Made by a program: the position numbers | Shown here: in pieces, positions 60,001 through 64,000 of the stretch | Position numbering within the stretch: the first letter of the stretch is position 1 | Layout of the letters: each line of letters begins with the position of its first letter | From: a virus | Virus genome (UHGV): UHGV-0180032 | Length of the DNA stretch: 64,000 bases | Strand: one strand, 5' to 3'

Positions 60001-63000
60001 TTTAACGCACGTTTAGCTTGCTCACGCTCACGCGTACATTTCGGACAGTAACAAACAGACGAATCGTGCAGTGACGACGCGTGGACGGTACCTGTACGTT
60101 GACGCCAGTATTCTGCTGCCATCAGTTTGGCGGTCGTCCAACCACATTGACGACGTTCAGCGTGGTACGCCTTACGGTCTTCCAGTGTCCCTTCACCGTT
60201 TTCGTAGGATGCGGCCGCACAGCTCCCACAACCGTGTTTCATCGGACAGCCTAAGCACGTTTCAGGATAGTTGGTGTATTGCGTCTGAATCTCTTCCAGC
60301 AGTTTCCCACCGTCTAAGCTAACAAACTCACGACCGACTAACTCAAACACCGCAGAACGTGACGTTACCGTTGACATAAACCGGTTACAACCGTACACCT
60401 TACGGTCAAAACCTAAGCAGGTCATAAACGTCAACGTCCCACAGAACGGACGTAAACGTTCAGGGTTATAACGGTGCGTGTCGTCGTACAGCAGTTTATC
60501 GCGCCAATCCGGGTCCCAAATCTGACGGAAATCCAGACCTTCAGGAATGATGTGGGACAACACGTTACGTGGGTTGGTGTGCAGTCCTTTCTCAATCCAA
60601 TAATCCATCACCTCGATCATCTGCAACGCAATATCCGTCGCCATGCTTCGTGGAAGAATATCTTCGTACGTCACGTTACCTGAAATCGTACCGCCACCGG
60701 CAATATCGATTAACGACTTCATACTCGCCGCGTAATGCGGTAAGGTTTCGGACGTAAAGGTTGCCTTAATACCCAGTTCGGCGATACCCACTTCTTTTAA
60801 GTAGTTATAGCCACGAACAGCGGCTTCGTAAGAACCCTGACGCGACGTGGTAAAGATACGATAGCGGTCATGGACTTCTGGCAACCCGTCGATAGAAACA
60901 CCGATGGAGAGTTTGTCTTTCCAACGCTCAACAATCTCACGGTTTAACGGACGGTCTAACAACGTCCCGTTCGTGGAGATACTGAACATATACGGGCGGT
61001 TATGCTCCTTACACAGCTGTTCTGCGGTTTCAAACGCCGCTAACAGCAGTTTCGGTTGCATAAAAGGTTCGCCGCCGATGATATCAATAATGACGTCGAT
61101 GTTCGGAATATCTTTGTCACGCTCAAAACAGGCGTGTAAGAAATCCACGATATCCGCCGCTTTGTTATTACGCGGATACTTACGTTCGTAACAATACTCA
61201 CAGTCTAAGTTACAAGACAGGTTCGTTACCACCTGGTAAGTACGTTGTGAACGTGGTGCTTCATTATTGCTCATCTTTGCTTATCCTTTTACGCTCTGCA
61301 TAAATCACGCGTTTAATGTACTCGTAAGCACCTACCCCGATAGAGCAAGCAAGCTGATTGCACCCACCCTTTAAGATAGCCGGTGCATTCTGAAGCTGAT
61401 GTTCTGTTCCATCTGCGTTCAAATACAACTCTTCGCTACAGACATTACACTCGTTTTCGAAAATCTTGCTGACAGACACACCGCACGATTCTCCAGTTTG
61501 GACGTTCAGCCGTTCCATATTCTCCTGAATCTTTAAATAACCATAAACGAAGTTCATGATGTGATCGGGAGACAACGGTTTTGGCATTTGGGCATCAAAC
61601 ATCAGAGAGAACGCACGGGGACGATAGTGGTACATTGCACGATGCAGTTCCACAATATCTTCATACCAGCGCTTATCGGCTAACTGGTCACGCGTAATCA
61701 CAGCCCAGGTTTGGAAGTTATCGAGTTCGTATAACGCTTCCAGTGCTTCGTGGCTATCCTCTTCAATAAAGCGTATAAAAGGACGCTCAGAACGCTTGTA
61801 GCCATCAATTGATACAAACACATGCTCAAAGTCTTTTAGCAGCGTAAGATGCGATTTACGCAGCTTTAATCCGTTGGTATACAAGTGATGCTCAAGATGC
61901 GGATGAGACACTTTCAATTCGTTAACGAAATCCTCAATCTTACGTTGGACGAGTAGCGGTTCTCCACCGGTCCAATGTATTTCCTTAATAGCTGGATTCT
62001 CTTGTAGTAATTCCAGGATACGTTCGCGTTGAAAAGCACGAGACGAATCTTCACGATTCATGTAGTAGGCTCCACCGCAGAAACTACAGTCTAGGTTACA
62101 CTTAGACGTCGTAACTACGGACAATATAGTGGGTTTATCGTACAACTTCGTCGAGATCCTGGATTCCACATTGTCTATCATTGCAGGTTGCTCCAGTATT
62201 TTTAAATATAATCGATGGCGAATAAAGGATCTTCGTCGAAGTTAACACCGGGTTTTAAAATCAGTGGTGAATTATACGCTTCCAGTAAACGGTTAAGTTC
62301 GTTGTAGCGGCTATTCATCCGTTTGAGGTCTTCTAAGGTTACAACACGGTCCAGCATCGGCTTAACCGCTTCGGCTTCTTCGTCAGTCAGCTTAACTTTC
62401 GACAGCAAGAAACTAACGAGTTTGGAAATGTCCGCTTCGGTAGCTGGGCTCTGACCAAAACGTACCTGAACCATATGCTGCATCCACGGTTTACGAATGC
62501 GTTTCGTAATTACGTGTTCGTCAGTAATGGCTTTCCAAACCGAACGTTCACGAATCCATTCAAACTTATAGCTGTAAGCCATTAAGTCAGCCAAATGCGT
62601 AATTCCGAGTTCTTGATAACCTTCAATATCGATATACGGTTCCGTATCGAAATACTCTTTGGTATCCTTCTCGACCAACGCGTAGTAGTTAGGGAATGCA
62701 CCCAGGTAGTCTGGACTCCACCAACGACGCGCCATCGGTTTAGCATCGAGTTCTTCAAACGGTGTGAACATAAGTTCTAAGTCAACTGTATTATTTAACA
62801 CACCGTCGCTAAAGAAATATTTACCATCGATAAGTTTACCGCGTTGTGAGTTGTCACCGGTAAAGACAACGATGCTTTCGCCAACCATGTCACGAATTTT
62901 GAACGTATTCTCAACCGTAAAGTTGTCACGATTAGCGATATGACGACCACGCACTTTCGGCCATTCCCCAGGAATCATGGCAATTAAGCGTACATCATCA

Positions 63001-64000
63001 GCAAGATGGTGACGTACCGAATCAGGGGAAGAGATGTGAAGTGGATGATTGAACGTTGTCGTATATGCAAGATGTAGATCGTTCTTCATTGATTACTCCA
63101 ATTAATTCACGGTCAAACGGACGTTCAGGGTATAGAACCCACCCCGCCATTGTCTGCCGGTAACTTGAAACTCAGCAGTAAACCCATTCGATTTACTCGA
63201 TTGTTGTGTAATAGCCGTGCTACCACCGGAGGGTTTATTTACCTTCCCCCCGCTCCTTTACTACAGCTACCACTGCACGCCCAGCTACAACTACCGTTAC
63301 AGTTATAGTGAGTTAACGGTAATCCCGCCAGGTTATTCGTTGAGGACACCGTACCTTGGTTAGCGATGTAGTTATTCGCGTCTGTGGTTTTAATGTAACC
63401 TTCAACCTGACCGACTCTGTCTCGAATATTTTTGAGGGAAATCACTTCTCACCTCCTATCGTCCTGTACACGACGAGCAGCCACCCGTACAGCTACTGGA
63501 GCACGATGCTGTACAGCCGCCCGTACAAGTGCCCGAACACGCATTAGCGCACCCACCCGAACAACTCCCCGAACATCCTGAACAACTACTGGAACACCCT
63601 GACGTGCAGTTTGCAGAGCATGAAGAACCACAACCACCAGACGCGTTCCCTGTACAACCACCAGAGCAACTCGAGCAGGTAAAGGAACACGTGCCCGCAC
63701 AATCATAATGCGCACGATTCCGACCACCGAACAGGTCCGCGTTATTCGTGGCCTTATTGCGGATGTAGTTCTGTACACCTGTGGTGTTTTTCAGCGCGAT
63801 ACTATCGACGTTATTAAGACGTCTTACTAATTCAGCTAATCCGACTGCCATTTCTTCCCCCTATCGTCCAGAGCATCCGCCGGAGCAAGCACCCGAACAG
63901 TTATGCGAACAACGCCCAGTACAACTTCCGGTACAGGTACTTGTACAACTGCTAGAACAGGCCCCCGAGCAACCGGAGCATCCTGAACAGTTGCCCCCAC

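What the first reader, a model, noticed from the sequence alone, without database searches (positions are those of the whole stretch)
62202..63089. Unknown 295-aa protein between the peptide array and the radical SAM genes
Position immediately upstream of the maturases, with a 149-nt structured gap separating it from the peptide genes, is where RiPP clusters often place a recognition-element (RRE) protein, a protease or an accessory modifying enzyme. No motif is recognisable by eye, so it may be a novel partner.
Basis: inference. Interest (0 to 1): 0.5.

Follow-up and report, generated by a model that had tools for sequence, protein, structure and literature searches.

The report
Orphan partner of phage Cys-repeat maturase
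This 295-residue protein of a giant SPN3US-like phage has no known relatives or fold, but in very different phages it always sits between a cysteine-repeat (often tail-fibre) protein and the radical-SAM enzyme that probably cross-links it, so it is most likely a new kind of helper for that modification.

Summary
The ORF is real: window 62202..63089, minus strand, 295 aa, with a GGAG ribosome-binding site and an invariant MKN start. It is the ortholog of Salmonella phage SPN3US gp165 (phrog_8030, function unknown).

The family is very rare: 44 representatives among 1.84 billion proteins. Its gene neighbourhood is almost fixed. At all but one gene copy recovered (jumbo phages, ~40-kb phages, Synergistaceae contigs), a CXXX-cysteine-repeat gene lies just upstream. 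At every copy a radical-SAM gene lies just downstream, often overlapping. The one exception follows a 97-aa ORF ending GCESCAMGC. In the smaller phages the cysteine repeat is the C-terminal tip of a bona fide tail-fibre protein.

The protein has no cysteine and no conserved catalytic-type residue set. SPN3US gp165 is not listed among virion proteins.

Best reading (confidence ~0.5): a non-catalytic docking or chaperone subunit that presents the Cys-repeat substrate to the RRE-less rSAM/SPASM maturase.

The "149-nt structured gap" is a variable spacer with no significant structure. Interest 0.6.

The parts
62202..63089 (-). The finding: a 295-aa gp165-like protein (phrog_8030) with an orphan fold and no Cys. 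It is proposed to be the non-catalytic docking/chaperone partner of the Cys-repeat maturase.
   Evidence: ORF. phrog_8030 E = 1.1e-138 over the full length. 32-ortholog alignment. AF2 pLDDT 86.8. No fold match. Conserved synteny.
63090..63238 (-). 149-nt spacer between the last Cys-repeat gene and the gp165-like gene. It is variable in length and carries the RBS of the 295-aa gene at its 3' end.
   Evidence: MFE z = -0.47. No Rfam hit. Corresponding distance 11-150 nt in relatives; 81-nt indel against L007.
63239..63445 (-). 68-aa short Cys-repeat protein: a leader-like N-terminus followed by CNGSCSWACSGSC.
   Evidence: phrog_6085 E = 1.9e-25. Present directly upstream of the gp165-like gene in most SPN3US-like loci.
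63456..63851 (-). 131-aa CXXX-repeat protein: about 50 aa of conserved N-terminal 'leader' followed by about 20 Cys at CXXX spacing. It is the presumed substrate.
   Evidence: phrog_6085 E = 1.6e-42. TIGR04114 Cys-rich repeat at 17.6 bits, below the cut-off of 20. Leader conserved across orthologs.
63861..64000 (-). 3' end of a third CXXX-repeat gene. It is cut by the window end and is 130 aa in the near-identical contig L004/L006.
   Evidence: Sequence reading (the gene ends ...CSGACSGGCSGR*). Full gene seen in L004/L006.
61264..62181 (-). Radical-SAM protein 1 (305 aa, CX3CX2C at residues 27-34, no SPASM). It starts 20 nt after the stop of the gp165-like gene.
   Evidence: PF04055 E = 1.2e-14. 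phrog_1802. Weak HxsC-like and other rSAM hits, all below cut-off.
59940..61274 (-). Radical-SAM/SPASM maturase (444 aa). CX3CX2C starts at residue 21, so there is no N-terminal RRE. Eight conserved C-terminal Cys.
   Evidence: PF04055. Best NCBIfam hits are TIGR04115 CXXX-repeat-target maturase (2e-36) and PapB (6.5e-32), both below their cut-offs. Orthologs at 30-38% identity in L020-L022.
59411..60001 (-). 196-aa protein (phrog_7988, SPN3US gp162 ortholog), function unknown, in the same operon.
58761..59435 (-). 224-aa DUF4376 protein (SPN3US gp161 ortholog), the last gene of the operon. DUF4376 proteins recur in these modules.
   Evidence: PF14301 E = 1.5e-10. Weak tail-protein PHROG hits. 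DUF4376 gene directly upstream of the CXXX gene in L106 and L109.
58729..58755 (.). Terminator-like hairpin with an 11-bp stem, between this minus-strand operon and the convergent plus-strand gene. Only the plus-strand reading is followed by a T-run.

Best explanation
The 295-aa protein is a dedicated, non-catalytic partner of a phage cysteine-repeat maturation system.

Proposed mechanism:
1. It binds the part of the substrate that precedes the CXXX repeats. In this phage that is the conserved ~50-aa 'leader' of the small Cys-repeat proteins. In smaller phages it is the distal end of the tail fibre.
2. It keeps the Cys-rich tail accessible.
3. It docks the tail onto the radical-SAM/SPASM enzyme, which by analogy with its closest characterised relatives installs thioether-type cross-links.

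Functionally this is what PqqD/RRE domains do for other rSAM maturases, or what a tail-fibre assembly chaperone does for a fibre tip. It is achieved here with an unrelated, so far orphan fold: an N-terminal curved beta-sheet region plus a conserved C-terminal beta-hairpin and four-helix module.

The conserved C-terminal module probably contacts the conserved partner (the rSAM/SPASM enzyme). The variable N-terminal half probably contacts the variable substrate.

Shown: the gene is real, the family is an orphan, synteny is conserved, there is no catalytic signature, the enzyme lacks an N-terminal RRE, and the SPN3US ortholog is absent from the published virion proteome.

Inferred: binding to substrate and enzyme, the assignment of the two halves, and the chemistry of the modification.
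For: 1) Synteny. At all but one of the gp165-like genes found, a CXXX-repeat ORF ends 0-250 nt upstream (838 nt for the first of two tandem copies in L105). The exception (L046/L047) follows a 97-aa ORF ending GCESCAMGC. At every copy a radical-SAM ORF starts between -31 and +23 nt downstream, often with overlapping stop and start. In two loci only the SPASM-type gene, about 870 nt on, passed my screen. This covers the SPN3US-like jumbo phages, a 284-kb phage, ~40-kb phages, three MAG contigs (two labelled Synergistaceae), and 172-180-kb metagenome contigs.

2) Reverse test. Of 25 viral loci whose rSAM/SPASM is >= 31% identical to the window's enzyme, 24 carry a gp165-like gene directly upstream. 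None of the 55 more distant loci does. Those carry other, unrelated small ORFs in the same slot. This is the pattern of a fast-evolving, clade-specific adaptor.

3) The pair persists where the substrate is reduced to that 97-aa ORF, in a locus with no recognisable tail genes in the flanks (L046/L047). The coupling is therefore to the enzyme, not only to a fibre.

4) The enzyme's CX3CX2C starts at residue 21. Models of maturases that carry an N-terminal extension (SCIFF, nif11, CcpM) align only from model positions about 80-105. No N-terminal RRE is present. The characterised relative PapB is said to rely on leader-RRE docking (PMC12373016).

5) No sign of catalysis. The protein has zero Cys. 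Across 51 diverse members, the conserved columns are hydrophobic plus P16, D168, K200, G212, D220, K223, K231, E238 and R261. No enzyme family or fold is matched.

6) Distant members match only the C-terminal module, about residues 160-277.

7) SPN3US gp161-166 are absent from the virion mass-spectrometry table that lists the neighbouring tail proteins gp167-171 and gp173 (PMC5105663, supplementary Table S4).
Against: No direct evidence of binding.

No gene fusion of the family to an rSAM or to a substrate was seen: all 44 representatives are <= 322 aa.

One rSAM locus in the >= 31% clade (L042) has an unrelated 224-aa ORF instead.

No RRE-like fold was detected, so 'RRE-like function' rests on context only.

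Absence from one virion proteome is negative evidence, and for a different phage (about 74% protein identity).

The operon also encodes a DUF4376 protein and a 196-aa unknown protein that could hold the chaperone or adaptor role instead.
Confidence: 0.5

Rival explanations
1. It is an ordinary tail-fibre assembly chaperone. It helps the Cys-repeat fibre tip fold or trimerise and has no functional contact with the radical-SAM enzymes.
For: In L020, L022, L045 and L103-L105 the gene lies directly downstream of the Cys-repeat-tipped protein, which is the classical chaperone position. For L020 and L022 that protein was confirmed as a tail fibre (PHROG hits down to 2e-40). The SPN3US ortholog is not listed in the virion table. 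The family evolves fast and is clade-specific.
Against: No similarity to Caudo_TAP, gp38 or gp57A-type chaperones. The gene stays glued to the rSAM gene, with overlapping stop and start, even in L046/L047, where the upstream ORF is a 97-aa non-fibre protein in a locus with no recognisable tail genes in the flanks. It is found only with one clade of the rSAM enzyme.
Confidence: 0.2
2. It is a new-fold enzyme that performs a second step on the substrate, for example leader removal or another side-chain modification.
For: RiPP clusters often carry such enzymes next to the maturase. Several charged residues (D168, D220, E238, K200, K223, R261) are conserved family-wide. Residues 2, 3, 6, 14 and 16 of the low-confidence N-terminal segment are invariant in the SPN3US-like clade.
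Against: There is no hit to any enzyme family or fold. There is no Cys, no conserved His or Ser, and no nucleotide- or cofactor-binding motif. No column is invariant across the broad alignment except Met1.
Confidence: 0.1
3. It is a virion component: a distal adhesin or cap that attaches to the cross-linked Cys-repeat tip, as T2-type gp38 does on gp37.
For: It lies in a tail-fibre and baseplate gene region. SPN3US gp167-171 immediately upstream are tail proteins, and gp168 resembles phiKZ gp131 (PMC5105663). The surface beta-sheet segment 51-88 is variable.
Against: SPN3US gp165 (34 kDa, rich in Lys and Arg, so easily detected) is absent from the virion spectral-count table, which lists proteins down to 3-8 counts. 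The most conserved part is the helical C-terminal module rather than a variable receptor-binding tip.
Confidence: 0.07

Closest known systems
PqqD and other RiPP recognition elements (RRE, PF05402), stand-alone or fused to rSAM/SPASM maturases (PqqD-PqqE, MftB-MftC, and the RREs of SCIFF/CteB-type enzymes)
   Same: A small to medium non-catalytic protein encoded between the precursor and the rSAM/SPASM maturase. The proposed role is the same: dock the non-modified part of the precursor and present the core to the enzyme. The enzyme here lacks its own N-terminal RRE.
   Different: There is no sequence or fold similarity. The protein is three times larger (295 aa against about 90). Its predicted architecture is different, a curved beta-sheet region plus a four-helix module. 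In some phages its substrate is the C-terminus of a >400-aa tail fibre rather than a short peptide.
CXXX-repeat peptide / rSAM maturase systems (NCBIfam TIGR04114/TIGR04115) and the ranthipeptide maturase PapB (freyrasin)
   Same: The neighbouring 444-aa enzyme's best family hits are TIGR04115 (2e-36) and PapB (6.5e-32). The neighbouring proteins carry Cys at CXXX spacing.
   Different: All scores are far below the curated cut-offs (126 against 350 bits; 111 against 340). To my knowledge (memory, not tested here) those bacterial systems have no gp165-like component. The phage substrates are tail-fibre tips or fibre-tip-like small proteins. A second, non-SPASM rSAM is often present.
Phage tail-fibre assembly chaperones (lambda Tfa/Caudo_TAP, T4 gp38 and gp57A)
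   Same: The gene lies immediately downstream of the fibre gene in the small phages. The protein is not listed in the virion table (SPN3US ortholog). It is lineage-specific and fast-evolving.
   Different: There is no homology. It is strictly coupled to a radical-SAM gene, a link not described for any fibre chaperone in the literature I could search.
Salmonella phage SPN3US gp165 (SPN3US_0165, YP_009153459) / phrog_8030
   Same: It is the ortholog: about 74% protein identity, the same length and the same gene order.
   Different: Nothing is known about it. It is annotated 'hypothetical protein', is not in the virion table, and has no amber mutant reported in the papers read.

Membership tests
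phrog_8030 (SPN3US gp165-like proteins) | Full-length match to the family HMM | tested here: met
   E = 1.1e-138, residues 1-293 on profile positions 1-293 of 295. Orthologs at 41-99% identity with the same length.
PqqD-like RiPP recognition element (RRE) | Sequence match to PqqD/RRE models (PF05402 and relatives) | tested here: not met
   The window protein has no Pfam family at E <= 1. None of the 42 diverse family members hits PqqD even at E <= 10. No NCBIfam hit.
PqqD-like RiPP recognition element (RRE) | Winged-helix fold of about 85 aa (three-stranded sheet plus three helices) | tested here: not met
PqqD-like RiPP recognition element (RRE) | Encoded next to, or fused with, the precursor and its rSAM maturase | tested here: met
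   The rSAM gene lies directly downstream in every locus. A Cys-repeat gene lies upstream in all but L046/L047, where a 97-aa ORF with three Cys stands in.
PqqD-like RiPP recognition element (RRE) | Binds the leader of the precursor and forms a ternary complex with the enzyme | not testable with these tools
This needs a pull-down, ITC or AF-Multimer.
Tail-fibre assembly chaperone (Caudo_TAP PF02413, T4 gp38/gp57A types) | Sequence or fold similarity to a known chaperone family | tested here: not met
   No Pfam or PHROG chaperone hit. The only significant BFVD match is the ortholog in Erwinia phage Asesino.
Tail-fibre assembly chaperone (Caudo_TAP PF02413, T4 gp38/gp57A types) | Gene directly downstream of the fibre gene it serves | tested here: met
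   L020 and L022 have confirmed tail fibres (PHROG tail-fibre hits 2e-40 and 3e-32). L045 and L103-L105 have a Cys-repeat-tipped protein in the same place. In the window it lies downstream of small fibre-tip-like proteins instead.
Tail-fibre assembly chaperone (Caudo_TAP PF02413, T4 gp38/gp57A types) | Required for fibre folding or trimerisation | not testable with these tools
   Needs genetics or co-expression experiments.
   No family or fold match. Zero Cys. No conserved His or Ser, and no SAM-binding glycine motif among the conserved columns.
CXXX-repeat rSAM maturase system (TIGR04115 enzyme plus TIGR04114 target), applied to the neighbouring genes | Scores above the curated cut-offs | tested here: not met
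   Enzyme: 126.2 bits against a cut-off of 350. Target repeat: 17.6 bits against 20. These are related proteins, not members of the equivalog families.

The most novel reading that the evidence does not exclude
The gp165-like family is a new-fold substrate-recognition/chaperone subunit of a phage radical-SAM pathway that cross-links cysteine-repeat tips of tail fibres, or free fibre-tip-like proteins in jumbo phages. That would be RiPP-type chemistry recruited to build a virion part, with an RRE function reinvented on an unrelated scaffold.
Probability: 0.35. Interest if true: 0.8.

Novelty: new variant of a known kind. Interest (0 to 1): 0.6.

Why it matters
Radical-SAM peptide maturases are thought to find their substrates mainly through PqqD-like RRE domains. 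Here is a maturase clade without an N-terminal RRE that always travels with an unrelated orphan-fold protein. That pairing would broaden how substrate recognition in RiPP-type pathways is understood and mined for.

The substrates are tail-fibre tips, or proteins homologous to them. The module therefore points to an undescribed post-translational cross-linking of phage receptor-binding organelles. It appears in many viral contigs: 367 IMG/VR contigs encode relatives of the enzyme.

That is relevant to fibre stability, host range engineering and phage annotation. SPN3US is a genetic model phage in which its ortholog, gp165, could be tested directly.

Tried and rejected
- Pfam, NCBIfam, PADLOC and PDB-sequence searches of the protein and of a 32-sequence profile gave nothing. 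The only PDB-sequence hits were at E = 0.56 and 0.93, to small phage baseplate/spacer proteins.
- hhalign of the family against the small accessory ORFs that occupy the same slot in distant rSAM/CXXX loci, and against the 224-aa ORF of L042, showed no relation: probability <= 0.6%.
- The idea that the 149-nt gap is a regulatory RNA or attenuator was rejected.
- I looked for Rosetta-stone fusions with an rSAM or a substrate among the 44 representatives and found none.
- Literature searches found no description of the system or of gp165. Terms tried: SPN3US with radical SAM or gp165; radical SAM with tail fiber, thioether, cysteine-rich, CXXX repeat or SPASM.
- The SPN3US infection-proteome paper (PMC6384053) is not held.
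Full report
**Observation**

The window carries an ORF at 62202..63089 on the minus strand: ATG start, 295 aa. A GGAG lies 8 nt upstream of the start. The first three residues, MKN, are invariant in 32 aligned orthologs that diverge to 41% identity. The gene is real and correctly delimited.

Reading the minus strand 5' to 3', the order is:
- three Cys-repeat genes (the third cut by the window end at 64000; then 63456..63851, 131 aa; then 63239..63445, 68 aa);
- a 149-nt spacer;
- the 295-aa gene;
- 20 nt further, a 305-aa radical-SAM gene (61264..62181);
- overlapping it, a 444-aa radical-SAM/SPASM gene (59940..61274);
- a 196-aa unknown gene and a 224-aa DUF4376 gene;
- a strong hairpin at 58729-58755.

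The spacer is not 'structured'. Its MFE z-score is -0.47 against shuffles and it has no Rfam match at E <= 1. Its length is not conserved: the corresponding distance is 11-24 nt in SPN3US and most relatives, 69 nt in a contig whose protein is 100% identical over the match, and 138 nt in another. The difference between the window and the 69-nt contig is one 81-nt indel.

**Where the window comes from**

The region is about 74% identical in DNA to Salmonella phage SPN3US and its relatives (Seoulvirus, phiKZ-like jumbo phages). The 295-aa protein is the ortholog of SPN3US gp165, annotated 'hypothetical protein'. The rSAM genes correspond to gp164 and gp163 and the annotated Cys-repeat gene to gp166. 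gp167-gp171, just upstream, are tail proteins. The PHROG family is phrog_8030, function unknown (E = 1.1e-138).

**What the protein is not**

- No Pfam, NCBIfam or PADLOC family matches it.
- When 42 diverse family members were scanned one by one at E <= 10, no Pfam family was hit by more than one member. None of those hits was PqqD, a tail-fibre chaperone or a methyltransferase; the only peptidase name was a single noise-level match (Peptidase_A2B, E = 0.027).
- A profile search of all PDB sequences gave only E = 0.56 and 0.93.
- An AlphaFold model built on the 32-sequence alignment is confident: mean pLDDT 86.8, pTM 0.82, with only residues 1-12 below 50.
- Foldseek against the PDB gave no match better than E = 0.23.
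- Foldseek against viral models found only the ortholog in Erwinia phage Asesino.

The fold is at present an orphan.

**How rare the family is, and what is conserved**

An exhaustive HMMER search of 1.84 billion cluster representatives found 44 proteins at E <= 0.001, all 65-322 aa long. The distant members (230-320 aa) match mainly profile positions about 160-277. That region covers a beta-hairpin (176-179, 184-187) and four helices (191-272), with the motif ADxxK/RL[IV]xFLLxKVxLTxEE.

In a 51-sequence alignment of the whole family, the conserved columns are hydrophobic-core positions plus P16, D168, K200, G212, D220, K223, K231, E238 and R261. The window protein has no cysteine. No conserved His, Ser or Cys set and no nucleotide- or cofactor-binding motif is present. 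This is the conservation pattern of a binding or scaffold protein, not of an enzyme.

**The decisive evidence is gene context**

I searched viral contigs, species-representative genomes and assembly collections for family members, independently of the rSAM genes. At all but one lineage a CXXX-repeat ORF lies directly upstream, and at every copy a radical-SAM ORF lies directly downstream. The lineages are:
- the SPN3US-like jumbo phages (L001-L019);
- a 284-kb phage (L020);
- ~40-kb phages (L021, L022, L045);
- a 279-kb phage (L046/L047);
- three MAG contigs, two of them labelled Synergistaceae (L103-L105);
- 172-180-kb metagenome contigs (L106, L109, L110) and a short contig (L107).

The distance from the Cys-repeat gene to the gp165-like gene is 0-250 nt, or 838 nt for the first of two tandem copies in L105. 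L021's Cys-repeat gene was hidden in the automated tally by an over-extended ORF call. L046/L047 has only a 97-aa ORF with three Cys. The distance from the gp165-like gene to the rSAM gene is -31 to +23 nt, frequently with overlapping stop and start, which suggests translational coupling. In L017 and L018 only the SPASM-type gene, about 870 nt downstream, passed my screen.

In L020 and L022 the Cys-repeat carrier is a bona fide tail fibre. PHROG tail-fibre families hit at E down to 2e-40. The L022 protein has the LNADKLDGHDSAYF motif and 'GNAATATKLQTARAINGVSFDGTGNINI' repeats. It ends in ...INTGCVSGCATTCISGCADSCAGSCGRGCHSSCSSDN. The C-terminus of the L020 fibre also hits phrog_6085, the family of the window's small Cys-repeat proteins (E = 2.7e-7). 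The window's 'peptides' are therefore free-standing homologs of tail-fibre tips.

The minimal conserved module is: Cys-repeat substrate, then gp165-like, then rSAM/SPASM. The second, non-SPASM rSAM is present in some lineages, fused to the SPASM enzyme in L020 and L104, and absent in L021, L022, L103 and L105.

**Reverse test**

A search with an alignment of the rSAM/SPASM enzymes found 367 viral contigs with relatives, of which 80 were kept. Of the 25 loci whose enzyme is >= 31% identical to the window's, 24 have a gp165-like gene directly upstream. The exception, L042, has an unrelated 224-aa ORF. None of the 55 more distant loci (<= 28% identity) has one.

Most of those distant loci still place a Cys-repeat protein next to the rSAM; one has 87 CXXXC steps in 480 aa. 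Between the two genes lie one to three other small ORFs of 94-226 aa. These ORFs fall into several families with no detectable relation to gp165-like (hhalign probability <= 0.6%) and no Pfam or PHROG annotation.

So the accessory slot is conserved, its occupant is clade-specific, and gp165-like is the occupant for one enzyme clade. In L046/L047 the pair persists next to a 97-aa ORF that ends GCESCAMGCHGPQ and beside a helicase-like gene, in a locus with no recognisable tail genes in the flanks. That argues the coupling is to the enzyme and not merely to fibre assembly.

**The enzyme side**

The 444-aa protein has its CX3CX2C at residues 21-28 and eight conserved C-terminal cysteines, as in SPASM domains. 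Its best family matches are the CXXX-repeat-target maturase TIGR04115 (2e-36) and PapB (6.5e-32). Both are far below the curated cut-offs, so it is a relative and not a member.

Models of maturases that carry an N-terminal extension align only from model positions about 80-105. The phage enzyme therefore has no N-terminal RRE. For PapB, substrate recognition is described as dominated by leader binding to an RRE (PMC12373016). An RRE-less enzyme with a highly conserved substrate 'leader' leaves a functional gap that an in-trans recognition protein would fill.

**Virion data**

Supplementary Table S4 of Thomas et al. 2016 (PMC5105663) gives spectral counts for purified SPN3US particles. gp160, gp167-171 and gp173 are listed, some with as few as 4-8 counts. 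gp161-gp166 are not listed. gp165 is 34 kDa and rich in Lys and Arg, so it should be detectable. Its absence favours an assembly or maturation factor over a structural protein. This is negative evidence from a related phage, not from this one.

**Most likely mechanism (confidence about 0.5)**

The protein is a non-catalytic docking or chaperone subunit.
- It binds the region preceding the Cys repeats. In this phage that is the conserved ~50-aa N-terminal part of the small proteins; in the small phages it is the distal fibre.
- It holds the Cys-rich tail accessible.
- It presents the tail to the rSAM/SPASM enzyme, which probably makes thioether-type cross-links, judging from its relatives.

The family-wide conserved C-terminal module is the better candidate for contacting the conserved enzyme. 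The divergent N-terminal half is the better candidate for contacting the divergent substrate. Within the SPN3US clade, the low-confidence N-terminal segment carrying invariant residues K2, N3, H6, N14 and P16 looks like a linear interaction motif. All of these assignments are inference.

**Rivals**

- A plain fibre chaperone with no link to the rSAM (0.2).
- A new-fold enzyme for a second step (0.1).
- A virion adhesin or cap (0.07).

Evidence for and against each is given in the Rival explanations section.

**Comparison with what is known**

It works, on this reading, like PqqD/RRE proteins or like tail-fibre assembly chaperones. It is a member of neither: the sequence and fold criteria were tested and not met, and only the context criteria are met.

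No paper in the searchable library describes gp165, the Cys-repeat/rSAM module of SPN3US-like phages, or radical-SAM maturation of tail fibres. The library is incomplete, so prior description elsewhere cannot be excluded.

I rate it a new variant of a known kind: an accessory recognition or chaperone subunit of an rSAM maturase, on a new fold and with a virion-related substrate. Interest 0.6. The protein alone is an uncharacterised helper, but it defines and anchors a widespread, apparently undescribed phage system, and it is directly testable in the SPN3US genetic model.

Noticed in passing
L001 (SPN3US NC_027402, locus coordinates about 9400-10500); window 63239..63445 and 63861..64000: SPN3US annotates only one Cys-repeat gene (gp166). 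An ORF scan shows three on the same strand upstream of gp165 (68, 134 and 130 aa), as in the window. Two small genes therefore appear to be unannotated in the reference genome.
   Followed up: partly
L048-L102 (IMG/VR contigs): 367 viral contigs encode relatives of the window's rSAM/SPASM. In most of the 55 distant loci kept, a Cys-repeat protein (up to 87 CXXXC steps in 480 aa, L051) sits beside the rSAM, often amid large tail-fibre-sized ORFs. One to three unrelated small ORFs (94-226 aa) lie between them. This looks like a large, apparently undescribed phage system with clade-specific accessory proteins.
   Followed up: partly
L020:8423-10483 and L104:5551-7569: The two radical-SAM proteins that are separate in the window (305 aa and 444 aa) are fused into one 686-aa or 672-aa protein in other phages. 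This supports the idea that they act together.
   Followed up: no
L105:4094-5714: Two tandem gp165-like paralogs (296 and 251 aa) lie between one Cys-repeat fibre and one rSAM/SPASM in a Synergistaceae MAG contig.
   Followed up: no
L046/L047 (L047:2133-8074): The gp165-like and rSAM pair sits next to a 97-aa ORF ending GCESCAMGCHGPQ and a 909-aa helicase-like ORF, with no recognisable tail genes in the flanks. The substrate appears reduced to three Cys.
   Followed up: partly
window 58761..59435; L106:5112-5747; L109:5009-5644: A DUF4376 protein recurs in these modules. It is the last gene of the operon in the window and lies directly upstream of the CXXX gene in 172-180-kb contigs. It may be another component, possibly the true fibre chaperone.
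   Followed up: no
window 63090..63238: The spacer upstream of the gene differs from a near-identical contig (L007) by a clean 81-nt insertion or deletion. A similar long version is present in L011, and SPN3US has only about 23 nt.
   Followed up: partly
window 58729..58755: A perfect 11-bp-stem hairpin lies between the minus-strand operon and the convergent plus-strand gene 58161..58691. A T-run follows it on the plus strand only, so it looks like a terminator for the plus-strand gene and perhaps for both.
   Followed up: no
window about 53700..58700 (L004 gene table): Several paralogous DUF7941 genes, a DUF1353 gene and a GH108/PG_binding_3 endolysin flank the operon. SPN3US gp160, of this paralog region, is an abundant particle protein in the published table.
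   Followed up: no
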